From positions 42,446-106,445 of the forward strand of contig CBDVDR010000012.1 of NCBI GenBank assembly GCA_965372795.1: a stretch of 64,000 nucleotides of DNA, given 5' to 3'. Origin of the DNA: an uncultured bacterium. GTDB lineage: Bacteria; Zixibacteria; MSB-5A5; GN15; FEB-12. The notes beneath the pieces are model-generated. The model was not told the DNA's origin. It worked only from the letters and a program-made list of their open reading frames with translations, and ran no database searches. The position numbers and the translations under genes are program-made. Positions 7,968 to 54,873 of this stretch are shown piece by piece. Position 1 is the stretch's first letter. Every line of letters begins with the position of its first letter.

Positions 7968-9902
7968 TTAGAAGGCGTACAATATAGTAAAATGCCATCT
8001 ATCCGCAAAGTCAAAATAATCAGTTTTTATCCGGCGAGCATAATCGACTCTGATAGGACCTGCCGGCGAAACTAATTGTAACCCGGTTCCATAACTGAGC
8101 GCAAGATGATTAAAATGAAATCCTCTATGGTCTGAAAATCCGTTACCAACATCAACAAAGACAGACTGCCAGAGGGGAAAAGTTCTAAGAAGATCATTCA
8201 AAACCGGTATGACGCTAAAAAGCTGTAATGTTTTCCAGCGAAATTCCTGATTGAAAACAACCGTAAAATCGGCTCCTAAGGGAAGGTTATCAGACCCAAC
8301 CGGACCAAGGGTGTTTTCTCTGAAAGCTCTTATGCTATTGGCTCCACCCAAATAGAGCCGGTCATTTATTGGAACTACCGAAGAGTTTCCAAAAGCTTCA
8401 ACGGAGCCTAATTTTATTCTTGTAGCCGAGATCCATCCGGGCCAGACAATCATATACCTTGACCAACTAACTTCAAGGTGAGTAAAATTATCATCACCGC
8501 TTAAGATCCCGCCATAATATTCACCAATTATTTCAGTTACGGAACCTCTTCTGGGTAGAAAAATATTGTCCCGGCTATCACGGCGAAAAGTCAGATACAA
8601 CTTTCTACGAACCGAGAGAAGGTTTTCCGCTTTTATAATTTCTTCCAATTCTGCCGAAGCCCCGGAAATTTTAATCGATTCATACTCAAGCCCCACTGTT
8701 GTTCTTATTTTATGTCCGAATCTTTTTTGGGAGGCAACTGATAATGACCACGATCTTATTAAATAGTCCTGTACCGGGTCTTTCAAAGTCGGTTCCCATT
8801 CTCCGGTAATAGCCAGAGGCATTCTTAGACCGATGAACCATGGTTCTGTAAATCGTAAACGATAGCGATGAGTAATTAATTCTACTCCGTCACCTAAAGC
8901 TAAAGAGTAGTCGGCAAGGATATCATATCTTCTGGAACCCAAAAAATTCCGTTTACCAAATCCACTTGAGATGTCCCAGATCAAATCTTTATAGACCGAT
9001 TGACCGGCACCGGTTTGGAGCGTGAAATATTTTGGCTTACGTTCTCGCACTCGAAGGACAAAATCGGGTTGGAGACGGTTAAGGTTTTCTTTTTTATGGT
9101 TTAATTGTAAAGTGCTAAAATACCCGGATTCAAACAACCGTCTTTGTGAATCCAGAATTGTTCTTCGGCGGTAGATGTCGTTATTGTTTATTTTAACTTC
9201 TCGCCGGGCAGTATATTCGGGGTAACGGTCAATCCCTTCAATTTCAACCTTTCCAAAATGAGTCAAAGAATCAGAATCGATATAAAATATTAAGGGAGGC
9301 AAATCATTTATTTTAGCAGTATCAACAATATGACTTATTCGAGCGTAGGGATAGCCTTCGTTGGCAAGAATAGTTTTCATCGCAAAGCCAGCCTGTTGAA
9401 CTTCAAAAAGATTTAATGGTTTTCCTTTTTTCAACCCATCAGCTATTTTATTAAATCCATGTTGAAGCTCTTCGGGATAATTCCCTTTAATCTGCTTATC
9501 GCCATAAAAATATTGTTTCCCTTCGTTGATACCAACTCTGATCAAGGCTGATGAATCTGGTCTCATCTCAAAAAATTCAACAACAGAAATATTAAGAAAT
9601 CCTTTTGAAAGATAAATGAATTTTATCTCAAGCGAATCCCGTTCGGGAGTTTCCCTTTGGATTTTCCTGCGCCGATCTCCTTTGATAACTTTCCAAATGG
9701 AATTTTCCCGGGAGTACATCCTCTTTTTAATATGACTGTCAGTAAAATATTCATTACCTTCAATTACTATAGAATCGATAACAGGTTTGTCTCTCAGCCA
9801 TCTCAAATGGGCTTTATCAACAGCCTGGCTATCTTCTGAAGAAAAGACAGAAAACAAAATCATAAAAAAAAGAACTGATATGAATAAACGAAATCTTATC
9901 AC
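7968..9902 (-). CDS. tamA: Omp85-family outer-membrane protein with POTRA domains (TamA-like)
   Basis: 644 aa. Signal peptide, POTRA-like segments (IDSIVIEGNEYFT…), and a C-terminal beta-barrel ending in an aromatic residue (…FTILYAF). Encoded directly after a TamB-like gene. Confidence 0.7.
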   Translation of the reverse strand: MIRFRLFISVLFFMILFSVFSSEDSQAVDKAHLRWLRDKPVIDSIVIEGNEYFTDSHIKKRMYSRENSIWKVIKGDRRRKIQRETPERDSLEIKFIYLSKGFLNISVVEFFEMRPDSSALIRVGINEGKQYFYGDKQIKGNYPEELQHGFNKIADGLKKGKPLNLFEVQQAGFAMKTILANEGYPYARISHIVDTAKINDLPPLIFYIDSDSLTHFGKVEIEGIDRYPEYTARREVKINNNDIYRRRTILDSQRRLFESGYFSTLQLNHKKENLNRLQPDFVLRVRERKPKYFTLQTGAGQSVYKDLIWDISSGFGKRNFLGSRRYDILADYSLALGDGVELITHRYRLRFTEPWFIGLRMPLAITGEWEPTLKDPVQDYLIRSWSLSVASQKRFGHKIRTTVGLEYESIKISGASAELEEIIKAENLLSVRRKLYLTFRRDSRDNIFLPRRGSVTEIIGEYYGGILSGDDNFTHLEVSWSRYMIVWPGWISATRIKLGSVEAFGNSSVVPINDRLYLGGANSIRAFRENTLGPVGSDNLPLGADFTVVFNQEFRWKTLQLFSVIPVLNDLLRTFPLWQSVFVDVGNGFSDHRGFHFNHLALSYGTGLQLVSPAGPIRVDYARRIKTDYFDFADRWHFTILYAF

Positions 9903-9904
9903 TA

Positions 9905-12900
9905 TTAAAATTCCAAATGCAGTTTTAAGTTCAAGTGATACAATTCTTCTTCATCCCGTCTTCCTTCAACTAAGAAGGCTTTGTTAAAGCGATATTCAAA
10001 GCCAACCTCCTGTCCGCTCTGACCGGATAGCTGGGACTTACCATACACATATAATCCCTGAGTTGTATAAAAACCAACCGTTATTCGAGTACTTAAAGGA
10101 TTTGCCAGAGTTCCCGAGTAAGGTTCGATTTCAAATGTTTCCACTCCCACCCCGAGTTCGTTTAATTGCCGGGCTCCGATTTGCGATACCTGCGATGAAA
10201 GTATTCCGGTAAAGCGTTCTTCAAACTGTCCGGTTGAGGAAGTTGTGTCGCCGCTGTAATAGTTTGCTACAATTAATGGAATGATATCTTCTTTTGAAAA
10301 GGTTGAGCCATCGACAGGATTTATATCCGCAGTATCAAGCGTTCCGGTCACATGTACTCCAAGCTCAATTAAATCTCTGGTTTCATTTTCTTCAAAAGCA
10401 GCTTGTGATAAACCCGGTACTCTGGTGTAGCCGATAAAATCCAGTCGGGGATTAAATCGTTCTTCGCCTTCAAACAACACCAGACCGCCTTGTTCCAGAC
10501 GGAAAGTTTTATCAAACAGATAACCGCGTCCCCGTACAATTTCCATCTCTCCAATAAAACGATACTGACCATCATCACGAAGAAGTTTTACCAGTCCGGA
10601 AAATTCAGCATCAATGTCTTCATTTTTAATCCAGTAATTGGAAAGGATGTCAATATTGATATCAAGGTCCCAAGTATTTTCACCTGATAGTGCCATCATT
10701 ATAGGTGAGCCTTCATCAGGTTCAGCAAAATTCACAAGATACCTCATGGTCAGCAAGGTAATATCACCGGTGACCAAAGGAGGGGTATCGCCTTCTATAT
10801 GCAATTCACCTTCAAGTTTCCCGCGAATATCATCGAGTTCGTAAGCGAAAGGGAAATCCTTTTTAATTTCCACATCAAGATCATAAAAAAGATTATCGAA
10901 AGAGTTTACAACGATATTTCCTTCGAGATTAGCATACCTTTTTTTGCCGCCCCGTTTTTTATTTTCGGTTGAATACATTTCCATATTTTCAATAATGATC
11001 AGATTATCCCTCATTATTGCAGTTGCCGTATCAACAAATATTGGATGTTCCAGATCAAAATATTTTAGGCGGCCGTTTATAATGGTAGCCAGACCTTCAA
11101 GATGCGGTTCTTGAGAAGTACCGCTCAGCCTTATATTAGAATAAAAATCTCCATCAAGCTGTTCTACCGAGGGTAAAATCAGACTGACTAAATCAAAGCG
11201 ATTGTCTTGTGCCGTAACTCGGAAATCCATCGGTTTATCGGGAAGTCTATCAATGTTAGCAGAAGTAAAAGCAAGATCAATCGGGAAATATCCATTACCG
11301 TAATATAGTCCCGGGTCCGAGAAAATCACGACGCTATCGACTGATAGGATATAGTCAGAATAATTTAAGGAGGCTGTCATATTGCCCAGGATGAGATCAC
11401 GATACTCAAGCGAATCAATAGTTCCGTCTACTTTGATTTCGGGTTTAAGGAAGTTTCCTGCGAGTCTACCATCACAAGAAAGTACTCCCCCCAGATCATA
11501 AGAGCCTTCAAATAATTTCACCCATGGTGCAATATCAACCTGTTTTATCAAGATCGCCATATCCATTGATTCATCAAAATTTACTCTGCCCACTGATGAA
11601 AGAAGAGCGTCCTCACTTTTAATGACCGCTTGTAAAAAATCAAAACCAAGAGTATCGACTAAAAATTCAATTTCATATTCATTACTAAAGGTTCGATCAA
11701 AGAGATTTATGTTCAAAGTATCAAGATGTACCTGAAATGGATATTCACCATAATCCAGGTAGCCCTTACTGGTCATTACTGCTAACTCGTTTCTAATATT
11801 CGCAGTATCAATAAATACTAAATTTGAATCAATCGTGATAATTGCTTTAGCGGTATCAAATGGGAGCGACCAGGCTTGACCGGAGAAAAAGTCAACTTCC
11901 ACTTTTCCCTGTTTACCGGTTAAGAACCGATCAATGTCAAAAGTTGAATAAAGGCTGTCGGAATATAATCCATAGATCCAAATCGAATCAGAGATAAAAT
12001 ATCCGCTCAAATCCGGGAAAGCTGTTTTACCGGTCAGGGTTGCTTCGCCATAGCCTCTGCCACCCGGTTGATCGATAAACAATTTCCCGCGATAACGATC
12101 AAGATTGTCGAGGTTCGCAATTATGGCCAGGTCGATATCATTTCTGTATTCTACCTTTCCATTAACAAAAAATCTATTTTCAAAATAGTCGATCCTGAAA
12201 TAATCACTGAACATAATCGAATCAGTTGTGATAGACATCATCCCTTTAGCAGAATGTATCGGATATTTATCAAAAGCTGATTCATACAGATCAGCATCGA
12301 TATCAATTAGCATTCTTTCTTTTTTAAAGGCTCTTCCGCTTAATTCGATATGTCCGGATAAATCAGATTCAAAAGAATTATTGACCATGTTTTTCAAATT
12401 AAAATTTCTTAGATCGGCAGAGACAAGGTATGTTTTTTCAGGTTTCGTAAAATCAATCGCACCCGACCCGTCAACTTTACAATTTCCTAAGAAAGTACCA
12501 TAGATCGTATCAAAGCTTAAATATTTATCGGCATAATTAAAATCTGTGTAAATATTTTGGAAGCTAACCGAAAAGAATTTCCCGCCAATATCTACCGAAC
12601 CATTAAATTTAGCACCCTCAAAAGATATATTACCATTGAGATCAACTTCACCATTTAGTTTGGCGCCTGTAAATTGAGTAACATCGTTTATGTCAATATT
12701 GTCAATTACAAACTCAACATTCCCCTTAAGAATATCCTCAAAGGAAACATTGCCATTAAATTTCATTTTAGTTTTATCAGAGCTTAAAGAGACATCCTGA
12801 AAGACAAGTGTTTTGTTATGATAGGTAAGTTTTCCTTCGGCTGACTCAAGAAAATACTTTTCCTGATTAGACTGGAAAGCTAATGATTTTAACTCAAGAG

Positions 12901-13450
12901 AATAAGTGTTCTCGGTTAATTTTATTCCTGCTCTAAAATTAAAATCATTGACTAAAAGAGTATCTTTGTTATCGATAAATTTAAAATTCAGGTTATTGAT
13001 AATTAACTCATCAACAGCCAGCATTGATAGAATAATTCCGGAACTTTCAGTGTCAGTTTTCTTTGAAAAATCAGGGATCATCATAGCGCCGGTTGAGTCT
13101 TTTTTCAGCATGATTTCGGCTGAGTCAATGGTCAGGTAATCGAAAATATATTTTCTATCCCATAAATTTGAAAAAGAATAGGCTGCCGTAATTTTTGGGA
13201 AATAAATAAGCCGGTAACTGCTGGCTGAATCATCATAGAAGATTGAAAGACTTTTCAGTTCAATACCAGAGAGTATATTCCCATTGATTTCCCCGATAGT
13301 AAATTTAATATCTGATTGTTCTTTAAAGCTTTCGGACAATTGTTTTTGAACAATTTCTTCAAACCCGCCCAGTTCAAATAGAAACAAAAAGGTTCCACTA
13401 ACTAAAAGAACTATTATTATCAGCGATATGTAGATTATTTTTTTTAACAT
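9905..13450 (-). CDS. tamB: Translocation and assembly module TamB-like protein (DUF490 / AsmA-like)
   Basis: 1181 aa. N-terminal TM anchor (IIYISLIIIVLLVSGTFLFLF) and a long beta-rich body. The C-terminal region (…VGFEYRFNKAFLVEGRRDEE…HLEF) is typical of DUF490. Forms a gene pair with tamA. Confidence 0.7.
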   Translation of the reverse strand: MLKKIIYISLIIIVLLVSGTFLFLFELGGFEEIVQKQLSESFKEQSDIKFTIGEINGNILSGIELKSLSIFYDDSASSYRLIYFPKITAAYSFSNLWDRKYIFDYLTIDSAEIMLKKDSTGAMMIPDFSKKTDTESSGIILSMLAVDELIINNLNFKFIDNKDTLLVNDFNFRAGIKLTENTYSLELKSLAFQSNQEKYFLESAEGKLTYHNKTLVFQDVSLSSDKTKMKFNGNVSFEDILKGNVEFVIDNIDINDVTQFTGAKLNGEVDLNGNISFEGAKFNGSVDIGGKFFSVSFQNIYTDFNYADKYLSFDTIYGTFLGNCKVDGSGAIDFTKPEKTYLVSADLRNFNLKNMVNNSFESDLSGHIELSGRAFKKERMLIDIDADLYESAFDKYPIHSAKGMMSITTDSIMFSDYFRIDYFENRFFVNGKVEYRNDIDLAIIANLDNLDRYRGKLFIDQPGGRGYGEATLTGKTAFPDLSGYFISDSIWIYGLYSDSLYSTFDIDRFLTGKQGKVEVDFFSGQAWSLPFDTAKAIITIDSNLVFIDTANIRNELAVMTSKGYLDYGEYPFQVHLDTLNINLFDRTFSNEYEIEFLVDTLGFDFLQAVIKSEDALLSSVGRVNFDESMDMAILIKQVDIAPWVKLFEGSYDLGGVLSCDGRLAGNFLKPEIKVDGTIDSLEYRDLILGNMTASLNYSDYILSVDSVVIFSDPGLYYGNGYFPIDLAFTSANIDRLPDKPMDFRVTAQDNRFDLVSLILPSVEQLDGDFYSNIRLSGTSQEPHLEGLATIINGRLKYFDLEHPIFVDTATAIMRDNLIIIENMEMYSTENKKRGGKKRYANLEGNIVVNSFDNLFYDLDVEIKKDFPFAYELDDIRGKLEGELHIEGDTPPLVTGDITLLTMRYLVNFAEPDEGSPIMMALSGENTWDLDINIDILSNYWIKNEDIDAEFSGLVKLLRDDGQYRFIGEMEIVRGRGYLFDKTFRLEQGGLVLFEGEERFNPRLDFIGYTRVPGLSQAAFEENETRDLIELGVHVTGTLDTADINPVDGSTFSKEDIIPLIVANYYSGDTTSSTGQFEERFTGILSSQVSQIGARQLNELGVGVETFEIEPYSGTLANPLSTRITVGFYTTQGLYVYGKSQLSGQSGQEVGFEYRFNKAFLVEGRRDEEELYHLNLKLHLEF

Positions 13451-13461
13451 AATTCAAACAG

Positions 13462-14124
13462 CTAATTAAGCTCATCTATAATTGAGCAGGCACTTTTATA
13501 TCCATCACCGGCCGAGATACTGATATCTTCAACAACTTGCCGAACCATCGCAAGGGATGCGCCCACATTTAAAGAACCTTTAATGTGTGAATAAAGTTGC
13601 TTATATTTATTCTCCACCGTTAAAATTGCTACAATTGCAAGTTCACGATCAATGATCCCTAATTGGTCTCTTGATAAAACCTTTCCATAACCTTCTACAA
13701 CCATCCAGCGAAAAATCTCCGGTGCTATTTTTTCAACTTTGTTTTTTAAAGAATCAAATTTATCAGTGTAAACCAGATTACATAAATTCATACCTCGTTT
13801 AAACCATGAATTAGCTTCATCCTCGGTAATTGGATTTAGGCTTACCTGTCCGGGATTAACCGGATTGTATTTATCGAGGAATTCCGCAGCGATTAACATC
13901 CGGGGGAATCCAAGAAAGAGATATGATTGCAGCATGATTTCATATAAATACTCTGATGGAACCAATAGTTGTTTAGATTTTCCCAATATAATTTTAGATG
14001 ATGATTCATCAGCGAAGGCAATTGCAGCAGCATACATTGACAGGGTACGGCTGAGGATATTTTCATCCGGTGAAAAGTTGTCAAGCCTTCGATGGAATTC
14101 GCCAATGTCTGCTGTTAAATTCAT
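13462..14124 (-). CDS. Carboxymuconolactone-decarboxylase-like (AhpD-fold) protein with non-canonical active-site residues
   Basis: 220 aa. RELAIVAILTVENKYKQLYSHIKGSLNVGAS resembles the CMD helix-turn motif but lacks the usual Cys. The assignment is tentative. Confidence 0.3.
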   Translation of the reverse strand: MNLTADIGEFHRRLDNFSPDENILSRTLSMYAAAIAFADESSSKIILGKSKQLLVPSEYLYEIMLQSYLFLGFPRMLIAAEFLDKYNPVNPGQVSLNPITEDEANSWFKRGMNLCNLVYTDKFDSLKNKVEKIAPEIFRWMVVEGYGKVLSRDQLGIIDRELAIVAILTVENKYKQLYSHIKGSLNVGASLAMVRQVVEDISISAGDGYKSACSIIDELN

Positions 14125-14169
14125 ACTGTAAAGAAAGATAATATTATAAAAGATAGCAATGTCAAATTA

Positions 14170-15354
14170 CTATTTTAAGCGGATCAATTTTTTTTCAAGT
14201 TTATACAATGCCGATTTAAGTGAATTTATTTCATTTAGGAGGGATTCTCTAGAAGATTTTGATAAAATTCTATTAGCCTGATTATTAACTGATGGCCTTT
14301 CGATATTCAAACTTCCACTGCCGATAGTCATTTTTACAAAAAACGGTATATTTTTACGAATTAACCCGATCTCAACAATCGTTCCCGGAGTCGTGCGAAT
14401 AATCTCTTTTTTTAGCCCGGCAGCGGAACTTATGTTTACACCATTATATTTAAATAACAGGTCACGTTTCATCAGACCTGCTTTTTTAGCCGGTGAATTT
14501 GGATCAATGTCGGTAATCAGAAGTCCTCGACTAATCATCAGACCGCTTCTGTTACTGACGTTAATTATCTCACCGGGAAGATTTATGACGATTCCGGGTG
14601 AAATTTCAATCTCTGAGGTTGTTATTCCGATAAAACCTGCTAATCGGCTTCCATACCTTAAAATATGCTGAACAACAGCCGGAATCAGATGTGCCGGAAT
14701 AGCAAGTCCTGCACCCGGGCTGTCGGGAGAATTTATACTACCGGATATAATACCAACAAGATTACCTGTAAGGTCGAATAAACCTCCACCAATAGTTCCA
14801 GATGTTAAAGCACCGGAATATTGGATTAAACCTTCCGGGCGAACTCCAGCGCAAAAGCCTAAGGTTGGACTTGAGCGAAGCCCATAGGCATTGCCCAAAG
14901 CTATAATCAGTTGTCCCCCGCATAAATATTGTTTTGAAATTTGGGCTGGTTGTCCGATACGTTTATCAATTTCAAGTAGTGCCAAACCGGTTTGGTAATC
15001 AATTCCAAGCAATTTTGCCGGAAGGGTATGCTGATTAAAATGAACCGCTATTTTATCTGAACCGGCGACACTCTTGGCTGAAGTGATAATATGGCCGAGG
15101 CTGTCATAGATAATGCCCGAAGAAATCATGCTATGAACCAGCTCTTCCCCGCTTCCAAAATAATTTGTATATGAAACAGGTTTGATTACTTCAACAGTGA
15201 CAACCGAACCAGACAGATTGTAGATTAGATCGTTTATTTCTGATTCAATAGAATAAAGCGTACTGTCTGACGAGTATGTGGAAGTTGTAAAAAAGACCGT
15301 TAGAATAACGCCTGACAGACAAGCTCTAACGGTCCTGTAAAAATTCGTTAGCAT
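14170..15354 (-). CDS. HtrA/DegP-fold protein with a C-terminal PDZ domain. It is predicted catalytically inactive because all three triad positions appear substituted.
   Basis: 394 aa. A by-eye alignment to E. coli DegP gives TSAKSV versus TNNHVV (His to Lys), TGLALLEI versus SDIALIQI (Asp to Gly) and GTIGGGL versus GNSGGAL (Ser to Ile). The GLAIPA segment and the PDZ region (ITDIDPNSPAKKAGL) are conserved. Confidence 0.6.
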   Translation of the reverse strand: MLTNFYRTVRACLSGVILTVFFTTSTYSSDSTLYSIESEINDLIYNLSGSVVTVEVIKPVSYTNYFGSGEELVHSMISSGIIYDSLGHIITSAKSVAGSDKIAVHFNQHTLPAKLLGIDYQTGLALLEIDKRIGQPAQISKQYLCGGQLIIALGNAYGLRSSPTLGFCAGVRPEGLIQYSGALTSGTIGGGLFDLTGNLVGIISGSINSPDSPGAGLAIPAHLIPAVVQHILRYGSRLAGFIGITTSEIEISPGIVINLPGEIINVSNRSGLMISRGLLITDIDPNSPAKKAGLMKRDLLFKYNGVNISSAAGLKKEIIRTTPGTIVEIGLIRKNIPFFVKMTIGSGSLNIERPSVNNQANRILSKSSRESLLNEINSLKSALYKLEKKLIRLK

Positions 15355-15355
15355 T

Positions 15356-16066
15356 TTAGTATCCTTGCGGTGCCTCCTTGTTATTCAATGATTTTGGAGA
15401 CACATAGACTTTGATAATCGGTCTAATTTTAAAATATCCTTTTAGATATGGTAACGGAATCTGTTGGAATTCAATCGAACTATGCCGATGAGTGCTTGAT
15501 CTGTGGAAACCATCATTAGTACTGGAACTGGTAAGAGTATTAGAAAGTCTCATCATTCGCTCATTTTTAGCCATCTGCTGGTTGAAAGACCAGTTTTTAT
15601 CAACATTGGCGACACGAGTAGCATAATTAGGATTGTTAGTCGGCATCGCGGTGAGATATGAATCATCAAGATGAGTATGTTCGGCAGCAAGTTGAGTCGG
15701 GTTAGAATCCAGATCAATGTTACTAACAGTTAAGTAAGTTGCAACAAAGAGAATACAAACGGTTGCAACCGCTGATACAAGTTTGGGCCATGACAACAAT
15801 GGTGGATTTTTTGGAAGATAAGCTTTGCTTCTTGTTTCAGCAAAGCGTTCATGAGCAATTCGATCCATCAATTTGTTATTAAAATCCGAAGATACTTTAA
15901 ATTTAGGTATCTCTCGGCTGTTGTCCAGCATGGAACGGTAGACCGCTTCCTCCTTGCGACAGTCAGCACACTCGGTTAGGTGCGCACTGATTTCTTCTGC
16001 CTTGCGAGGATTCAGCTCATCGCTACAAAAAGCTGACAGGAAGAAGCGTGTTTTTCGACAACGCAT
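15356..16066 (-). CDS. Zinc-finger anti-sigma factor (RseA/ChrR-like) with a single TM helix and a Ser/Thr/Asn-rich periplasmic tail
   Basis: 236 aa. HLTECADCRKEE is an HxxxCxxC zinc motif. TM helix LVSAVATVCILFVATYLTV. The start overlaps the sigma gene stop by 44 nt and has a GGAGGAA RBS. Confidence 0.7.
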   Translation of the reverse strand: MRCRKTRFFLSAFCSDELNPRKAEEISAHLTECADCRKEEAVYRSMLDNSREIPKFKVSSDFNNKLMDRIAHERFAETRSKAYLPKNPPLLSWPKLVSAVATVCILFVATYLTVSNIDLDSNPTQLAAEHTHLDDSYLTAMPTNNPNYATRVANVDKNWSFNQQMAKNERMMRLSNTLTSSSTNDGFHRSSTHRHSSIEFQQIPLPYLKGYFKIRPIIKVYVSPKSLNNKEAPQGY

Positions 16067-16625
16067 TATATTCCTCCACTCTGGGTTTTAATTTATCTCG
16101 CAACATCAACCTTGCCCGATTAACTCTTGATTTTACAGTTCCAAGAGGCACATCCAGCACTTTTGCTACTTCGTCGTATGCCATCTCCTGGACATCACGT
16201 AACATAAAGGCGGTACGGTATTTTTCGGGTAAGCTTGATATTGCTTCATTAAGGACTTCCGGGAGTCTTGTCGGGATTTTCATCTCAACGGCAAACTCCT
16301 TTTCGTTCCCTTTCATTTCAGTAATATCGTAATGTTTAAATTTCTTTCTTTTTCGCAATTCATTGCGACCTAAATTTAACCCGATAGTGTAAATCCAGGT
16401 TGACAGACAATGCTGGAAATTGAATGATTGACGATGTTGATAAACACGGATAAATGTTTCCTGAACAATATCCTCGGCTTCTTCGGTCGAATTGACCATC
16501 CGCCCAATAACATTCATAAGTCGGTCTTTGTATCGGTCGACCAATTCGTTGAAGGCAACCATATCGCCGTTTTGCACGGCTTTCATCAACCTAAAATCAA
16601 TATCTTTTTCAGATTCTTTCGCCAT
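16023..16625 (-). CDS. ECF (group IV) sigma-70 factor, RpoE-like
   Basis: 200 aa. Region 2 (…ETFIRVYQHRQSFN…) and region 4 HTH (…YDEVAKVLDVPLGTVKSRVNRARLMLRDKL). Confidence 0.9.
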   Translation of the reverse strand: MAKESEKDIDFRLMKAVQNGDMVAFNELVDRYKDRLMNVIGRMVNSTEEAEDIVQETFIRVYQHRQSFNFQHCLSTWIYTIGLNLGRNELRKRKKFKHYDITEMKGNEKEFAVEMKIPTRLPEVLNEAISSLPEKYRTAFMLRDVQEMAYDEVAKVLDVPLGTVKSRVNRARLMLRDKLKPRVEEYNALSKNTLLPVSFL

Positions 16626-16866
16626 AAATACCTTTCAGTCTGCTTAAATATAATACCCACAGACGAATTTAAAGTTCCAAAAATAGCCGTGAAAGATAAA
16701 AATTTTATCTGGCTGTATTACAGCCACTTACGAGGGCTATTTGGGCCGGTTTTTGGGTCTTATGCGCCAATTTCTGGAATTAATACAAATTGGAGGTAGA
16801 TTTCTTCCCAAAAAGTGGGGAAAAGTTGAAGGAGGGACGGATCCGCCGAAGAGGATTGCCATAGAA

Positions 16867-17062: not shown

Positions 17063-17347
17063 TTACAGACTATTATATAAGTCTTCCCAATTCGGATTAT
17101 CTTTTTCAATCAATTCTAATTTCCAAATTCTTTTCCAATTCTTCAATTGTTTCTCTCTGATGATAGCTTGAGTTATATCTTCATGAATTTCATAATAAAC
17201 TAATTTATGTACATTATATTTTGCTGTGAACCCCTTAACCAAATTATTTTTATGCTCGTAAATTCTTTTTATCAGATCATTTGTTACCCCAACATAAAGA
17301 GTACCATTTTTTCTACTGGCTAATATGTAGACAAAATACTGTTTCAT
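17063..17347 (-). CDS. Small GIY-YIG nuclease superfamily protein (UPF0213/YhbQ-like)
   Basis: 94 aa. YFVYILASRKNGTLYVGVTNDLIKRIYEHK is a canonical GIY-YIG motif. Repeat copy 2 begins 3 nt upstream of its start codon. Confidence 0.8.
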   Translation of the reverse strand: MKQYFVYILASRKNGTLYVGVTNDLIKRIYEHKNNLVKGFTAKYNVHKLVYYEIHEDITQAIIREKQLKNWKRIWKLELIEKDNPNWEDLYNSL

Positions 17348-50785: not shown

Positions 50786-53290
50786 GTGATGAGTCTACGT
50801 AGAGCATGGATAGCTCTCATATTTATATTCAGCATTAGTCTGTTTGCCGGGTCGCTATCCGCCCAAGGAAATTATACTATTGTCGGTATTGAAGTAGAAG
50901 GCAATAGAAAAGCCAGTCGTTCTTTAATCTTAGGTGTATCCTCATTAGATATCGGATCGGCTATCTCCCCTACAGATATCACTGCTACTATCCAGCGTTT
51001 ATATGGTCTTGGTATTTTTTCAGATGTTATTATCGAAGCCGAAGAAGTCCCCGGCGGATTAAAAGTTTACATCGTTTTAAAGGAATTGCCTAAACTTATC
51101 GGATTAAATTTTGAAGGTAATGACAAAATAAAAGATAAAGATCTGAAGGATAAACTTGGACTTGGCGTTGGGGGGTATATTTCTCCGCATTTAATAAGTG
51201 AAAAAAAGAATAAGATTAAATCTATCTATGCTGATAAAGGATATTTCCAGGCTGAGATAACCTCCGAATTAATACATAATACTGATTCAACCGAAGCATC
51301 TTTATTATTTAACATTAAAGAACATGACAAGATTAAAGTTAAAGAAGTAATTGTAACTGGTAACAGCCGTGTTTCTACATCAAGTCTTATCAAAAAAATG
51401 CGCAACCGCAAACGCGGATTTCTGAAAAGCTCTGACTTCGCTCAGGAAAAGTACGTTGAAGATTTACAGAAGGTCATTGAGACTTATCATAACAAAGGTT
51501 TTATCGATGCCTTTATGATTTCAGATTCAATTCGTATTGATAGCCTCGATAATAAAATGATTGTCTATCTTGAAGTTTTTGAAGGTCCCATGTATTACTT
51601 TGGTAATACCGAGTTTGTTGACAATAAAAAACTAAATACTCACTACCTGACCAGAAAACTGAAGCATAAAGAAGGTCAACCGTTTAAGCAGGAAAATTAT
51701 GACGAGTCGATCTATGAACTTTATTCAGCCTATCAGGATATTGGCCATCTTCATGTTCAGATAACAGATGATCGGGTAACCAGATCTGATTCTATTATAG
51801 ATATTTCTTATAGCTTTTCCGAAAATCTCCCCTCAAAAATAAATGAAGTTCGGATTCTTGGTAATACTAAGACAAAAGATTATGTTATCAGACGTGAGAT
51901 TTCGACCCTTCCGGGGCAAACATTTAACCGCTCCCTTCTTATTCGTTCAGTTCGTGATGCGATGGCTTTGAACTATTTTACCAATGTTATGCCGATCCCT
52001 ATAAATCTTCCAAATGGCGATGTTGATGTTGAGTTTCAGGTTGAAGAAAAACAGACCGGACAAATTTCTGCCGGTGCCGGATATAATAGTCAGGATAAAC
52101 TGGTCGGTACTCTGGGAATGGCAATTCCAAATTTCAGAGGCAATGGGCAGAATGTTTCATTCAATGTTGATTTTGGCAGTCGAAGAAACTCATTTATGCT
52201 TTCTTTTACTGAACCATGGTTAATGGGCAGACCTACTTTGTTAGGATCGGATGCTTACACTACTAACCGTCGATGGTTTGATGATTATATTGAAGGCCGT
52301 CAGGGTGGCTCAATAAAACTTGGACGTCGTTTACGCTGGCCCGATAATTATTTCAGAGTGTTTACTTCTTATCGTTTAGAAAGAAATAGATTTTATGATT
52401 TTGATGATGCTTATTTATTAGAGAATTCTCAGAAGCATTATAATCAATATACTTTTGATAGAGTAATTATTGATGACGAGACAGGTCTTGAGGAAACAAT
52501 TACCGTTGACACAACTATCATAGTTGCAAGAGATCCTTTCCCCGGATCGATTATTGAATATAAAGAAGAATGGCTGACCTCTTCCCGGTTTTCTATATCT
52601 CTGACCCGAGATTCTCGTAATTTACCTGAATTTGCAACCAGTGGCTCACTGTTTCAATATACTTTTGAAAATACCGGTGGAATCTTAAGTGGATTTTGGG
52701 AATATCAAAAACACTCAATCTCTTTTGCGAAGTTTTTCCCGATTTACAAAAATATTGCATTTGCGGCCAAGGCTCAATATACTTTCACAACTTCCCCAAA
52801 GGGTGATGATCGCGTGTTGATTTCTGATCGATTTACTCCCGGTGGCACAGCTTATGACGGAATTGTTCGCGGTTATGAAGATGGTTCATTAACACCTGAC
52901 TCAGTAATTTCTTTTGCTGACACTTCTAATTTCTATACTGGTGAGCCTGGTGGAAGTGTAACTTTAGATAGCACTCTTGAACGAAGCTCAAGCTCATTTA
53001 CAACTCGAGTTCGCGGTAAATATATGTTAATTACAAACCTCGAACTTCAAGTTCCAATTGTACAAAATCAAATATATGGTTTAGCTTTTTTTGATGCTGG
53101 AGATACCTGGTTGATGAAAGAAGATATCAAACCATTTTATATGCATCGTTCTTTAGGTTTTGGGTTCCGAGTAGTCGTTCCGGGAATTGGAACGATTGGT
53201 TTTGACTTTGCCAAACGACTCGACAGTTCAACATCGGGCGAAAAAGGCGGTTGGAAACCACATTTCCAAATGGGTACCACATTTAGGTAA
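50786..53290 (+). CDS. bamA: Outer membrane protein assembly factor BamA
   Basis: 834 aa. Five POTRA-like repeats and a C-terminal Omp85 barrel. Followed by skp and lpxD, the canonical neighbourhood. Confidence 0.88.
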   Translation: MMSLRRAWIALIFIFSISLFAGSLSAQGNYTIVGIEVEGNRKASRSLILGVSSLDIGSAISPTDITATIQRLYGLGIFSDVIIEAEEVPGGLKVYIVLKELPKLIGLNFEGNDKIKDKDLKDKLGLGVGGYISPHLISEKKNKIKSIYADKGYFQAEITSELIHNTDSTEASLLFNIKEHDKIKVKEVIVTGNSRVSTSSLIKKMRNRKRGFLKSSDFAQEKYVEDLQKVIETYHNKGFIDAFMISDSIRIDSLDNKMIVYLEVFEGPMYYFGNTEFVDNKKLNTHYLTRKLKHKEGQPFKQENYDESIYELYSAYQDIGHLHVQITDDRVTRSDSIIDISYSFSENLPSKINEVRILGNTKTKDYVIRREISTLPGQTFNRSLLIRSVRDAMALNYFTNVMPIPINLPNGDVDVEFQVEEKQTGQISAGAGYNSQDKLVGTLGMAIPNFRGNGQNVSFNVDFGSRRNSFMLSFTEPWLMGRPTLLGSDAYTTNRRWFDDYIEGRQGGSIKLGRRLRWPDNYFRVFTSYRLERNRFYDFDDAYLLENSQKHYNQYTFDRVIIDDETGLEETITVDTTIIVARDPFPGSIIEYKEEWLTSSRFSISLTRDSRNLPEFATSGSLFQYTFENTGGILSGFWEYQKHSISFAKFFPIYKNIAFAAKAQYTFTTSPKGDDRVLISDRFTPGGTAYDGIVRGYEDGSLTPDSVISFADTSNFYTGEPGGSVTLDSTLERSSSSFTTRVRGKYMLITNLELQVPIVQNQIYGLAFFDAGDTWLMKEDIKPFYMHRSLGFGFRVVVPGIGTIGFDFAKRLDSSTSGEKGGWKPHFQMGTTFR

Positions 53291-53322
53291 AAATAATTTT
53301 CATATGATAGGGAGTTTTATTA

Positions 53323-53859
53323 ATGCGTCTTTTTAAAAACTATTTAATTGCCACTCTAATTTTAACCGTCGTCTGTTTTTCTGCAATAGGATCAGTTTCA
53401 GCACAAGGTTTGAAAATGGGTTTCGTAAATGACGAACGGATTAAAGTAGAGTATAAAGCCTGGCAAAAGGCTCAGGATGATTGGGAATTAGAAGCCAAAG
53501 CCTGGGAAGATGAAGCTGTTCAGATGCAGCAGGATCTACAGGATTTAGTTGATGAATTTGAAAAACAAAAGCTGATTCTTTCTGAAGAAAAGAAAAAAGA
53601 GAAAGAAGCTGCTATTAATGTCAAGACAGACGCCCTTGATAACTACACTCGTCGAATATTCGGTCCAAATGGGGAAGCTGAACGCAAACAGGCGCAATTG
53701 CTTCAGCCATTACTTGAAAAAGTAACTCAGTCAATTGAGGCGGTTGCTATTGAACAAAATTATGATGTAATTTTCACCCTTCAAAGCGGTTTGGGATATA
53801 TCAAGGAAAGTTACGACCTGACAGACAAAGTCCTTGAGTATCTTGACAATCTGGAATAA
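53323..53859 (+). CDS. skp: OmpH/Skp periplasmic chaperone
   Basis: 178 aa. Signal peptide and a long coiled-coil Skp-like body. Confidence 0.8.
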   Translation: MRLFKNYLIATLILTVVCFSAIGSVSAQGLKMGFVNDERIKVEYKAWQKAQDDWELEAKAWEDEAVQMQQDLQDLVDEFEKQKLILSEEKKKEKEAAINVKTDALDNYTRRIFGPNGEAERKQAQLLQPLLEKVTQSIEAVAIEQNYDVIFTLQSGLGYIKESYDLTDKVLEYLDNLE

Positions 53860-53865
53860 AATATT

Positions 53866-54873
53866 ATGCAGTTAACCCTCAAAGAAATTGCCGAACGCAT
53901 CGAGGGAACTGTACAAGGTAACGGCGACGCTATTATAAATGGTGTCGCCCCTATCTCTACAGCCAACAACAACGAAATCACCTTCATTGCGAATAAAGAA
54001 TATCTTAAATACTTAAGCGATACAAATGCCGGTGCGGTAGTGCTTGACCCGGATGCACCCGAAACTTCCATTCCTTCAATTCGTATTAAAAATCCATACC
54101 TGGCCTTTTCATATATAATTGATATTTTTAATCCTATCAAACCAAGAGTTGCTTCCGGAATTCATCCAACTGCGATAATCGGAGACAATGCAAAGATTGA
54201 CGACTCTGCAGGAATCGGAGCTTTTTGTCATTTTGAAAAAAACAGCAAAATTGGAAAGAACTGTCAATTTGTATCCTCTGTTTATATTGGAAAAAACGCA
54301 ACCATCGGTGATAATTGTCTGATTTACCCCGGGGTGAAAATAATGGATGACACCAAAATTGGTGATAATGTTATTATCCACGCTGGGACTGTGATTGGAT
54401 CGGATGGATTTGGATATGCCGAGAGCCCGATGGGTCTTAAAAAAATCCAACAAATTGGCTGGGTTGAAATTGGCAACAATGTCGAAATCGGCTCAAATGT
54501 GTCAATTGATCGGGGAGCATTGGGTCCGACAAAAATAGGTGACCGGACCAAAATTGATAATTTGGTGCAAATCGCTCATAATGTCGAAACGGGAACGGAC
54601 TGCATTATTATCAGTCAGGTTGGCATTGCCGGATCAACTAAACTTGGGAATAGAGTTATCCTTGCCGGTCAAGTTGGCTTAGTCGGACATATTACAATTG
54701 GTGATGATACAAAGGTTGGGGCTCAGTCCGGAGTCAAAAAGAATCTCGAAGCCGGTAAGACATATTTCGGTTCCCCTGCTCGTGAATTTATAGAAACATC
54801 TCGGATTGAGGCTTCTCTCAAACGACTTCCTGAATTATTAAAGAGAGTTAAAAAACTCGAAAAAGATCAGTAA
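53866..54873 (+). CDS. lpxD: UDP-3-O-acylglucosamine N-acyltransferase
   Basis: 335 aa. Left-handed beta-helix hexapeptide repeats. The lpxD-specific N-terminus and the catalytic His region are present. Confidence 0.93.
   Translation: MQLTLKEIAERIEGTVQGNGDAIINGVAPISTANNNEITFIANKEYLKYLSDTNAGAVVLDPDAPETSIPSIRIKNPYLAFSYIIDIFNPIKPRVASGIHPTAIIGDNAKIDDSAGIGAFCHFEKNSKIGKNCQFVSSVYIGKNATIGDNCLIYPGVKIMDDTKIGDNVIIHAGTVIGSDGFGYAESPMGLKKIQQIGWVEIGNNVEIGSNVSIDRGALGPTKIGDRTKIDNLVQIAHNVETGTDCIIISQVGIAGSTKLGNRVILAGQVGLVGHITIGDDTKVGAQSGVKKNLEAGKTYFGSPAREFIETSRIEASLKRLPELLKRVKKLEKDQ

What the first reader, a model, noticed from the sequence alone, without database searches (positions are those of the whole stretch)
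14170..16625. ECF sigma / zinc anti-sigma operon terminating in an HtrA-fold PDZ protein with a fully substituted catalytic triad
The three genes overlap or abut (sigma stop overlaps the anti-sigma start by 44 nt; 1-nt gap to the third gene). Aligned by eye to DegP, the third protein has His to Lys (TSAKSV vs TNNHVV), Asp to Gly (TGLALLEI vs SDIALIQI) and Ser to Ile (GTIGGGL vs GNSGGAL), while the fold and PDZ domain are retained. A pseudo-protease in the DegS position suggests an envelope-stress sensor that binds unfolded OMP C-termini or the anti-sigma without cleaving. That would be an RseB-like or decoy role carried out by a DegS-derived scaffold.
Basis: partly seen in the sequence, partly recalled or inferred. 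Interest (0 to 1): 0.55.

Follow-up and report, generated by a model that had tools for sequence, protein, structure and literature searches.

The report
Dead HtrA protease partnering an anti-sigma
An envelope-stress-type sigma factor and its membrane anti-sigma factor are always followed, in Zixibacteria and related uncultured phyla, by a secreted HtrA-like protein that has lost its catalytic residues, and the anti-sigma always ends in an aromatic residue of the kind the partner's PDZ domain could bind, which points to an undescribed, non-proteolytic way of controlling the sigma factor.

Summary
Three minus-strand genes, an ECF sigma (16023-16625), a zf-HC2 single-pass anti-sigma (15356-16066) and an HtrA-fold protein with one PDZ domain (14170-15354), overlap by 44 nt and abut with a 1-nt gap. 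Alignments to E. coli DegQ and DegS put K94, G123 and I188 at the His, Asp and Ser positions.

The loss is ancient. All 155 relatives scoring at least 280 bits lack both His and Ser, yet the dead protease domain is better conserved than the PDZ domain.

The gene order DUF401, sigma, anti-sigma, pseudo-HtrA, CMD-like, TamB, TamA-like holds in about 60 of 65 Zixibacteria genomes. More distant triad-defective relatives, one from candidate division KSB1, also follow a sigma/anti-sigma pair. Three intact-triad controls do not.

New findings:
- The protein has a signal-peptide-like N-terminus and is probably soluble, unlike membrane-anchored DegS.
- It carries a family-specific C-terminal coiled-coil-like helix.
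- The anti-sigma's periplasmic tail is predicted disordered and ends in Tyr or Phe in 69 of 69 independent homologues.
- The PDZ carboxylate-binding loop is retained.
- A conserved promoter (TGGAACTTT-N12-GGGTAyTA) precedes the sigma gene.

Best reading, which is inferred and untested: a periplasmic, RseB-like, non-catalytic partner holds the anti-sigma tail through its PDZ domain. I rate it a new variant of a known kind.

The parts
16647..16681 (-). ECF-type promoter TTTGGAACTTTAAATTCGTCTGTGGGTATTATATT (-35 GGAACTT, -10-like GGGTATTA), presumably autoregulatory
   Evidence: GGAAC-N17-GTA lies 28-45 nt upstream of the sigma start in 51 of 54 related loci. The PWM score here is 32.5. The next best score in the 64-kb window is 12.9, and the best in 20 shuffles is 17.9.
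16023..16625 (-). ECF sigma factor, 200 aa, RpoE/SigW-like
   Evidence: Sigma70_r2 3e-16 and Sigma70_r4_2 7e-17. Below the equivalog cutoffs for SigW (141 against 209) and RpoE (132 against 236). It is 73-88% identical across 61 related loci.
15356..16066 (-). Single-pass zf-HC2 (ZAS-type) anti-sigma factor, 236 aa. Cytoplasmic anti-sigma domain, TM at about 93-115, periplasmic tail about 116-236 ending in ...QGY
   Evidence: zf-HC2 2.7e-6. C3, H29, C33 and C36 are invariant in 50 homologues. One hydrophobic 19-mer window peaks at residue 96. In the AF2 model helices 3-81 and 93-115 are confident, the periplasmic part has low pLDDT except helix 161-179, and the tail 180-236 is disordered. The last residue is Tyr in 60 and Phe in 1 of 62 loci, and Tyr in 67 and Phe in 2 of 69 independent clusters.
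14170..15354 (-). Secreted HtrA-fold pseudoprotease, 394 aa. Signal-peptide-like 1-30, helix 28-48, degenerate protease domain about 51-235 (K94/G123/I188), one PDZ about 236-345, linker, C-terminal amphipathic helix 367-393
   Evidence: for domains, fold and triad. for conservation of the loss. for the N-terminus. for the retained PDZ loop F241-I242-G243-I244 (family [YF]-[ILV]-G-[IVL], with G present in 65 of 65). for the C-terminal helix in distant relatives.
13462..14124 (-). CMD/AhpD-like protein, 220 aa, no signal peptide. Conserved neighbour, role unknown
   Evidence: Weak Pfam CMD match (8e-4, below cutoff) and PcaC 1.6e-7. Present directly downstream in 56 of 65 loci. A strong sigma-70-like hexamer pair, TTGACA-16-TATTAT, lies in the 45-nt gap upstream at 14165-14138.
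9905..13450 (-). TamB-like protein, 1181 aa
   Evidence: Pfam TamB 4.4e-37. Downstream in 60 of 65 loci.
7968..9902 (-). TamA-like Omp85/POTRA outer-membrane protein, 644 aa, ending in ...ILYAF
   Evidence: Omp85 8.6e-42 and POTRA 7e-18. C-terminus.

Best explanation
This is the conserved core ECF module of Zixibacteria and related FCB-group candidate phyla. It is an autoregulated RpoE/SigW-like sigma factor held at the membrane by a zinc-finger (zf-HC2) single-pass anti-sigma factor.

The third gene encodes a secreted, probably soluble and probably trimeric HtrA-fold protein that cannot cleave peptide bonds, because its His, Asp and Ser are all gone. It still keeps its substrate-cleft scaffold and a working-looking PDZ domain.

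The proposed mechanism is inferred, not shown:
1. In unstressed cells the pseudoprotease binds the disordered periplasmic tail of the anti-sigma. Its PDZ domain captures the invariant aromatic C-terminus, and the dead protease domain probably clamps an upstream conserved motif.
2. This shields the tail from a site-1 protease, as RseB or MucB do for RseA or MucA.
3. When outer-membrane assembly fails, exposed C-termini of unassembled outer-membrane proteins, which end in Phe in this genome, compete for the PDZ domain.
4. The anti-sigma tail is released and degraded, and the sigma factor is freed.
5. The sigma factor then transcribes its own operon and probably the adjacent TamB/TamA assembly genes.

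Shown here: gene structure, fold, loss of the triad and its conservation, synteny, the promoter motif, the aromatic C-terminus and the retained PDZ loop. Inferred: binding, the direction of regulation, competition by outer-membrane proteins, and the identity of the site-1 protease.
For: - The triad is replaced and has never been restored in 155 family members, while the protease domain is the best conserved part (48% mean identity against 38% for the PDZ). This indicates selection for a non-catalytic function.
- The sigma, anti-sigma, pseudo-HtrA order holds in 61-62 of 65 Zixibacteria loci.
- The same order holds in 7 of 7 distant triad-defective relatives with enough flanking DNA, while TamB and CMD are not always present. 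The trio is therefore the invariant unit.
- Three intact-triad HtrAs used as controls have no sigma or anti-sigma neighbour.
- The junction is tight, a 1-nt gap or an overlap, and an AAGGAGG Shine-Dalgarno sequence lies inside the anti-sigma's last codons. This suggests coupled, stoichiometric synthesis.
- The anti-sigma ends in Tyr or Phe in 61 of 62 loci and in 69 of 69 independent clusters. Both TAC and TAT codons are used.
- It also ends in Tyr or Phe in 7 of 9 very divergent loci where the genes are 15-80 nt apart. Only 1 of 49 window ORFs ends in Tyr.
- The PDZ carboxylate-binding loop that binds C-termini in DegS (Y258-I259-G260-I261) is kept as [YF]-[ILV]-G-[IVL], with Gly in 65 of 65.
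- The anti-sigma periplasmic region is predicted mostly disordered, with short conserved motifs, as expected for a tethered ligand.
- The N-terminus is signal-peptide-like with no TM-strength segment, so both partners meet in the periplasm.
- The -35 element GGAACTT and the adjacency to TamB/TamA fit an outer-membrane stress regulon.
- The sigma-E, RseA, RseB and DegS logic that serves as the template is established (PMC8103513).
Against: - No interaction was tested.
- The aromatic C-terminus could equally be read by a different PDZ protein, such as a DegS/AlgW-type or Prc/CtpA-type protease.
- The direction of regulation is unknown. The MamO precedent shows that an HtrA-like pseudoprotease can activate a partner protease rather than protect a substrate (PMC4794232).
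- DegS-type PDZ ligands usually end in Phe with Tyr at position -2, and no -2 preference is visible here.
- Two of nine distant anti-sigmas end in Pro or His.
- Some distant relatives keep the Ser (SNS, GNS and SDS patterns) with an intact GNSGG motif, so residual or unusual chemistry in those branches cannot be excluded.
- Only one promoter match was found in 64 kb, so the regulon is undefined.
Confidence: 0.5

Rival explanations
1. Positive adaptor. The pseudoprotease does not protect the anti-sigma. Instead it recruits or allosterically activates a separate active protease on the anti-sigma tail, either an HtrA paralogue in mixed trimers or a tail-specific protease. It would then be needed for sigma activation, much as MamO promotes MamE-dependent proteolysis.
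For: - MamO is an HtrA-family pseudoprotease that activates MamE-dependent proteolysis (PMC4794232).
- Residues that form the DegS activation cluster remain conserved in the dead domain: Y162 as Y/F in 60 of 65, P183 as P in 51 of 65, and Q191 as Q in 63 of 65.
- The conserved aromatic tail and the PDZ loop fit delivery as well as they fit shielding.
Against: - No active HtrA is encoded in the window or in any of the 66 loci.
- The extra N- and C-terminal helices are specific to this family, which would make mixed trimers with ordinary HtrAs less likely. This point is inference.
- The gene sits in the rseB/mucB slot, and the proteins known to occupy that slot are negative regulators.
Confidence: 0.2
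2. Effector, not regulator. The protein is a periplasmic holdase-type chaperone for outer-membrane or TamAB clients, using the well-known protease-independent chaperone side of the HtrA fold. It is simply the first regulon member encoded in the sigma operon, and the anti-sigma's aromatic end is read by some other protease.
For: - HtrA proteins have dual chaperone and protease activity (PMC8671199 and PMC12826053 abstracts).
- TamB and a TamA-like Omp85 protein follow in most loci.
- Active HtrAs are encoded in sigma operons elsewhere. One is mucD in the algT(algU)-mucABD operon, whose name and membership come from the title and abstract of PMC6264809.
Against: - TamB and TamA are missing next to several distant trios, whereas the sigma/anti-sigma link is constant.
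- The tight junction with the anti-sigma gene and the aromatic anti-sigma C-terminus that accompanies it are unexplained by this reading.
- Losing all three catalytic residues is not needed for chaperone function.
Confidence: 0.15
3. Decaying gene. The triad loss marks a pseudogenised or functionless remnant of an ancestral operon-encoded HtrA.
For: All three catalytic residues are replaced.
Against: - The reading frame is intact and full length in all 66 loci, and the set contains well over 150 clusters at 90% identity.
- 35 columns are invariant across sequences only 38-51% identical to the window protein.
- The protease domain is more conserved than the PDZ domain.
- Family-specific additions are conserved even in distant branches.
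Confidence: 0.02

Closest known systems
E. coli rpoE-rseA-rseB-rseC with DegS and RseP (sigma-E envelope stress response)
   Same: - An ECF sigma with a GGAACTT -35 element.
- A single-pass anti-sigma with a largely unstructured periplasmic part.
- A secreted third protein encoded directly after the anti-sigma.
- PDZ-based reading of aromatic C-termini as the stress logic (PMC8103513).
   Different: - The anti-sigma is zf-HC2 type, not RseA type.
- The third protein has the HtrA fold of DegS rather than the RseB fold, but is catalytically dead and apparently soluble.
- degS is unlinked in E. coli.
- Here the aromatic C-terminus sits on the anti-sigma itself.
Pseudomonas aeruginosa algU(algT)-mucA-mucB-(mucC)-mucD with AlgW and MucE
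   Same: - An HtrA-family protein, MucD, is associated with the sigma/anti-sigma operon. MucD is among the structural matches (8k2y).
- The AlgW PDZ domain reads C-termini of MucE or outer-membrane proteins (PMC8545111 abstract; PMC6264809 and PMC13608001).
   Different: - MucD is described as an HtrA-like serine protease. From my own knowledge it has an intact triad and two PDZ domains.
- It is separated from mucA by mucB(C).
- The protein here has one PDZ domain, no triad, and directly follows the anti-sigma.
MamO and other magnetosome HtrA-like pseudoproteases
   Same: HtrA/trypsin-2 scaffold with a degenerate triad kept under selection for non-catalytic roles, including control of a partner's proteolysis (PMC4794232).
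   Different: - Unrelated context (magnetosome island), with a metal-binding di-histidine motif and a TauE transporter domain.
- The match to the MamO NCBIfam model is only 23 bits against a cutoff of 800.
- No link to a sigma factor.
Mycobacterial sigE-rseA-htrA(-tatB) locus (my own knowledge, not checked here)
   Same: An ECF sigma, a zinc-type anti-sigma and an HtrA-like gene in a row.
   Different: The mycobacterial HtrA has an intact triad and is membrane-anchored. The organism is a different kind of diderm and has no TamB/TamA.

Membership tests
HtrA / S1C serine proteases (DegP/DegQ/DegS) | Chymotrypsin-like protease domain fold followed by at least one PDZ domain | tested here: met
   Trypsin_2 6.4e-14 and PDZ_2 5e-9. 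The AF2 model matches DegP, DegQ, DegS, AlgW and MucD at E about 1e-23 to 1e-20.
HtrA / S1C serine proteases (DegP/DegQ/DegS) | His-Asp-Ser catalytic triad | tested here: not met
   K94, G123 and I188 occupy the DegS H96, D126 and S201 columns. His and Ser are absent in 155 of 155 family members.
HtrA / S1C serine proteases (DegP/DegQ/DegS) | Score above the curated family cutoffs (TIGR02037 Do family 416 bits; TIGR02038 DegS 423 bits) | tested here: not met
   133 and 109 bits respectively.
DegS-type site-1 protease | N-terminal transmembrane anchor | tested here: not met
   No 19-residue window exceeds Kyte-Doolittle 1.5. The N-terminus has a charged n-region, an h-region of about 12-14 residues and an AxA-like site before the conserved DS-SL. 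SignalP was not available.
DegS-type site-1 protease | PDZ carboxylate-binding loop able to bind C-terminal peptides | tested here: met
   DegS Y258-I259-G260-I261 aligns with F241-I242-G243-I244. Gly is present in 65 of 65. Binding itself was not tested.
RseB/MucB family | Sequence or fold homology to RseB (MucB_RseB domains) | tested here: not met
   No Pfam or NCBIfam RseB/MucB match. The fold is HtrA. Only the gene position and the proposed role resemble RseB.
ECF (group 4) sigma factors | Regions sigma-2 and sigma-4 only | tested here: met
   Sigma70_r2 and Sigma70_r4_2. TIGR02937 scores 95.7 bits against a cutoff of 42.9.
RpoE or SigW equivalogs | Score above the equivalog cutoff | tested here: not met
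   RpoE TIGR02939 scores 132 against 236. SigW NF007223 scores 141.5 against 209.
Zinc-binding (ZAS, zf-HC2) class I anti-sigma factors | H-x3-C-x2-C motif in an N-terminal helical anti-sigma domain | tested here: met
   zf-HC2 scores 27.8 bits against a cutoff of 22.2. H29, C33 and C36, plus C3, are invariant in 50 homologues. Helices 3-52 and 62-81 have pLDDT of 85-98 up to residue 70, dropping to 73 for residues 71-80. Zinc binding was not tested.
MamO-type pseudoproteases | Membership of the MamO clade, di-histidine metal site | tested here: not met
   The NCBIfam MamO model scores 23 bits against a cutoff of 800. The context is different.

The most novel reading that the evidence does not exclude
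A previously unrecognised class of three-component ECF signalling module. A catalytically dead HtrA trimer acts as the periplasmic receptor, holding the anti-sigma factor by its own aromatic C-terminus, which mimics the end of an outer-membrane protein. Unassembled outer-membrane proteins displace the tail by competition. This would be a ligand-competition sensor that replaces the allosteric protease DegS. It would be ancestral to several FCB-group phyla, and branches that have lost His but still keep Ser would record stepwise loss of catalysis.
Probability: 0.3. Interest if true: 0.8.

Novelty: new variant of a known kind. Interest (0 to 1): 0.62.

Why it matters
Envelope-stress signalling through ECF sigma factors is understood almost entirely from Proteobacteria and Firmicutes, where an active protease starts the cascade. 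Here a whole phylum, and at least one neighbouring one, keeps a dead copy of the sensor-protease fold welded to the sigma/anti-sigma pair, and the anti-sigma carries the kind of C-terminus that such PDZ domains read.

If the proposed binding is real, it shows how a protease sensor can be converted into a pure binding switch. It would also be the first HtrA-fold pseudoenzyme, to my knowledge, tied to transcription control.

Public records name these proteins 'S1C family serine protease', 'serine protease Do' or 'DegQ'. That is misleading, because they cannot be serine proteases of the classical kind.

The hypothesis can be tested with peptides and recombinant protein, without culturing the organisms.

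Tried and rejected
- **Second HtrA:** I looked for an active HtrA in the window and in the 66 loci and found none. Whether these genomes encode an intact-triad paralogue elsewhere stays open. Cluster names for the nearest intact-triad hits gave no Zixibacteria assignment.
- **P0042 fusion:** This 600-aa anti-sigma/pseudo-HtrA fusion looked like a Rosetta-stone link. It lacks the anti-sigma's last ~12 residues, would place a second hydrophobic segment mid-protein, and is a single sequence on one contig. I treat it as a probable assembly or gene-calling artefact and did not use it.
- **Complex modelling:** Not possible.
- **Regulon scan:** Scanning the window with the promoter PWM found only the operon's own site. 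The second-best hit (10083-10117, 12.9 bits) is within the range of shuffled sequence.
- **Promoter in distant loci:** The motif is recognisable in only 3 of 8 distant loci, two of which (L070 and L071) carry the identical sequence.
- **Literature:** Searches for a pseudo-HtrA linked to ECF sigma factors, for ECF sigma factors in Zixibacteria, and in the ECF reclassification paper found nothing relevant. That paper's supplementary tables were not available.
- **DegS R178 and D320:** I tried to map these allosteric residues. The alignment around R178 is ambiguous because of a loop deletion, and the D320 column is variable, so I make no claim.
- **Other scans:** Rfam and tRNA scans of the window were empty.
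Full report
**1. What is in the sequence**

- A 200-aa ECF sigma factor, 16023-16625.
- A 236-aa protein, 15356-16066, whose start overlaps the sigma stop by 44 nt.
- A 394-aa protein, 14170-15354, that starts one base after the second gene's stop.

Pfam assigns Sigma70_r2 and r4_2 to the first. It assigns zf-HC2 to the N-terminus of the second, and Trypsin_2 (residues 79-202) plus one PDZ domain (271-335) to the third. NCBIfam places the third protein in the Do/DegS/DegQ neighbourhood, but far below every curated cutoff: 133 bits against 416 for the Do family and 109 against 423 for DegS.

**2. The triad**

HMMER alignments to solved DegQ chains agree with a MAFFT alignment that includes genuine E. 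coli DegS and DegQ translated from NC_000913.3. DegS H96, D126 and S201 align with K94, G123 and I188.

An AF2 model built on 36 homologues has mean pLDDT 80. Its best PDB matches are DegP, DegQ, DegS, AlgW and MucD, so the fold is retained.

**3. Is the loss conserved?**

Yes, and it is old.
- Among 120 homologues at 38-51% identity, the His column is never His (mostly S, P, Q, A). The Asp column is mostly Gly. The Ser column is V, I or L and never Ser.
- A profile search of 1.84 billion representatives, followed by re-alignment, shows that all 155 proteins scoring at least 280 bits lack both His and Ser. Intact HDS proteins first appear at 214 bits or less.
- The gene is not decaying. 35 columns are invariant, and the dead protease domain is more conserved (48% mean identity to the window protein) than the PDZ domain (38%).

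No alternative conserved nucleophile-base pair is evident. Lys94 itself is not conserved. This last point is inference from the alignment.

**4. Context**

A scan of one genome per species found 66 loci. 65 of them are from Zixibacteria or similarly labelled FCB-group MAGs. Counts out of these 65 loci:

| Gene | Loci |
|---|---|
| DUF401 (upstream of sigma) | 35 |
| sigma | 61 |
| anti-sigma | 62 |
| pseudo-HtrA | 65 |
| CMD-like | 56 |
| TamB | 60 |

All lie on one strand. Absences are mostly at contig ends. In the window a TamA-like Omp85/POTRA gene follows TamB.

Across these loci the sigma is 73-88% identical to the window's, while the anti-sigma and the pseudo-HtrA are only about 40% identical.

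The sole non-Zixibacteria locus (L066, Verrucomicrobiota) has an intact HDS triad and no sigma or anti-sigma neighbour.

**5. The module extends beyond the phylum**

Nine more distant HtrA-like proteins with defective triads were looked up on their contigs. Their patterns include SEL, SGV, SNS, RES, GNS and SDS, and they score 182-272 bits.
- All seven with enough flanking DNA sit immediately after an ECF sigma and a protein of about 185-310 aa with one hydrophobic, TM-strength segment. That protein is zf-HC2-positive in five of the seven.
- The two short contigs are compatible with the same arrangement.
- One of these clusters is annotated as candidate division KSB1.
- TamB/Omp85 and CMD follow in some of these loci but not in others, so the trio is the constant unit.
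- The two best-scoring intact-triad proteins have unrelated neighbours.
- Some distant branches keep the Ser and a perfect GNSGG motif but lack His. This looks like an intermediate stage of degeneration, though that is inference.

**6. New anatomical points**

(a) *N-terminus of the pseudo-HtrA.* It has a charged n-region, a hydrophobic core of about 12-14 residues (consensus LAVFF) and an AxA-like site before a conserved DS-SL. No 19-residue window reaches TM-like hydrophobicity. It therefore looks secreted and soluble, unlike membrane-anchored DegS. SignalP could not be run.

(b) *Family-specific helices.* There is a helix at 28-48 and an amphipathic, heptad-like C-terminal helix at 367-393. 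The C-terminal helix is also present in the distant relatives.

(c) *The anti-sigma.* It has invariant C3, H29, C33 and C36, one TM segment at about 93-115, and a periplasmic part that AF2 predicts as mostly disordered apart from a helix at 161-179. Short conserved motifs are DDSYLTVQP..NPN, WSL..QLA..ER..RIS and YYR.RPV.R.Y.

(d) *The anti-sigma's last residue.*
- It is Tyr in 60 and Phe in 1 of 62 loci, encoded by both TAC and TAT.
- It is Tyr in 67 and Phe in 2 of 69 independently retrieved 90%-identity clusters.
- In the nine distant loci the rest of the periplasmic sequence is unrelated and the genes are 15-80 nt apart, yet seven still end in Tyr or Phe.
- Only one of 49 window ORFs ends in Tyr.
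- The conserved K-E a few residues upstream is explained by the AAGGAGG ribosome-binding site for the next gene, but the terminal aromatic residue is not.

(e) *The PDZ loop.* The carboxylate-binding loop that holds C-termini in DegS (YIGI) is retained as [YF]-[ILV]-G-[IVL], with Gly in 65 of 65.

(f) *Outer-membrane proteins in the window.* They end in Phe: TamA-like ...ILYAF and a 262-aa protein ...AYINKF.

**7. Promoter**

GGAAC-N17-GTA (consensus TGGAACTTT-N12-GGGTAyTA) lies 28-45 nt upstream of the sigma start in 51 of 54 loci. In the window it is at 16647-16681(-) and scores 32.5 bits. That compares with 12.9 for the next best site and a maximum of 17.9 in shuffles.

The -35 element is the classic sigma-E-type GGAACTT; that attribution is my own knowledge. 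This indicates autoregulation.

A strong sigma-70-like hexamer pair lies in the gap between the pseudo-HtrA and the CMD-like gene (14165-14138). The downstream TamB/TamA genes may therefore also have their own promoter.

**8. Interpretation**

The evidence shows a conserved, secreted, non-catalytic HtrA-fold protein genetically welded to a sigma/anti-sigma pair. The anti-sigma has a disordered periplasmic tail ending in the kind of residue that HtrA-family PDZ domains bind.

The most economical mechanism is a guardian role like that of RseB. The PDZ domain holds the tail end, and probably the dead cleft holds an upstream motif, which blocks site-1 proteolysis. Unassembled outer-membrane proteins would compete for the PDZ domain and release the tail. 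The template for this logic is the established sigma-E pathway (PMC8103513).

Binding, direction and competition are all inferred. The main rival is a positive adaptor role, as MamO has for MamE (PMC4794232). A pure chaperone-effector role explains the tight sigma/anti-sigma linkage and the aromatic tail less well. Gene decay is excluded by the conservation pattern.

**9. Comparison and novelty**

HtrA genes next to sigma/anti-sigma genes are known. One example is mucD, linked with algT(algU)-mucAB. Another, from my own knowledge, is mycobacterial sigE-rseA-htrA. Those HtrAs are active proteases. HtrA-like pseudoproteases are also known (MamO), but in an unrelated setting.

I found no paper that describes a triad-less HtrA as a conserved partner of an ECF sigma/anti-sigma pair, or the aromatic anti-sigma C-terminus. 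The searchable library is incomplete, and the supplementary tables of the ECF classification were not available.

Public annotation calls these proteins 'S1C family serine protease', 'serine protease Do' or 'DegQ'. I rate the finding as a new variant of a known kind.

It is wrong in detail, because the protein is neither DegS-like in anchoring nor a DegS orthologue, and the operon continues beyond this gene.

Noticed in passing
L010, L012, L018, L036 (for example L012:5910-5975): In one Zixibacteria clade the pseudo-HtrA ATG start is replaced by CCG, yet the upstream codons still encode the conserved signal-peptide N-terminus (P-L-[TK]-I-S-F...). An ATT three codons downstream is conserved in all four loci. 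This suggests a non-canonical ATT start or some form of coupling with the anti-sigma stop. Gene callers start these proteins at a downstream TTG, which leaves them without a usable signal peptide.
   Followed up: partly
window 16023-16066 and the same overlap in related loci: The 44-nt sigma/anti-sigma overlap is conserved across the phylum. Both reading frames are conserved at the protein level there: the sigma tail ...ALSKsTLLpVslL and the anti-sigma start MRCRKVRS.LSAYC. This is a dual-coding stretch under double constraint.
   Followed up: partly
window 13462-14124 (-): The conserved CMD/AhpD-like neighbour (56 of 65 loci) shows no CxxC motif in its family consensus (...QL.SH..GAlNvGa). 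It may be another catalytically altered member of an enzyme family. It has no signal peptide, and its role in the locus is unknown.
   Followed up: no
window 17063-17347 (-): A 94-aa GIY-YIG domain gene sits between DUF401 and the sigma promoter in the window. In most related loci DUF401 ends about 150-250 nt upstream of sigma with no gene between. This looks like a lineage-specific insertion.
   Followed up: no
about 55-60 nt upstream of the -35 element in many loci (for example L005, L041, L056: GTTAACTTATTATATGACA); window about 16715-16740: A second conserved element, roughly TAACTTaTTaTAt..CA, lies upstream of the ECF promoter in many Zixibacteria loci. It could be a housekeeping promoter or a regulator binding site.
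   Followed up: no
pseudo-HtrA residues C145 and C168 (window about 14851-14922): C168 is invariant and C145 nearly invariant in the family. They lie on neighbouring strands of one beta-hairpin (149-156 and 159-171 in the model), at positions where DegS has Ile. This could be a periplasmic disulfide. Distances could not be measured because no coordinates are returned.
   Followed up: no
P0042 (600 aa, one JGI contig): A single database protein fuses the anti-sigma, minus its last ~12 residues, directly to the pseudo-HtrA start. It is probably a deletion or assembly artefact. If real, it would be a natural fusion of the two proposed partners.
   Followed up: partly
window 50786-54873 (+): A BamA (five POTRA domains plus Omp85), Skp/OmpH and LpxD cluster is present. 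The organism is therefore a classical diderm with an LPS and OMP assembly pathway. No match to the ECF promoter motif lies upstream of it.
   Followed up: partly
window 14138-14165 (-): A near-consensus sigma-70-type promoter (TTGACA-16-TATTAT, 11 of 12) fills the 45-nt gap between the pseudo-HtrA and the CMD-like gene. It suggests separate constitutive expression of CMD, TamB and TamA. The gap is only about 10 nt in some related loci, so this is not universal.
   Followed up: no
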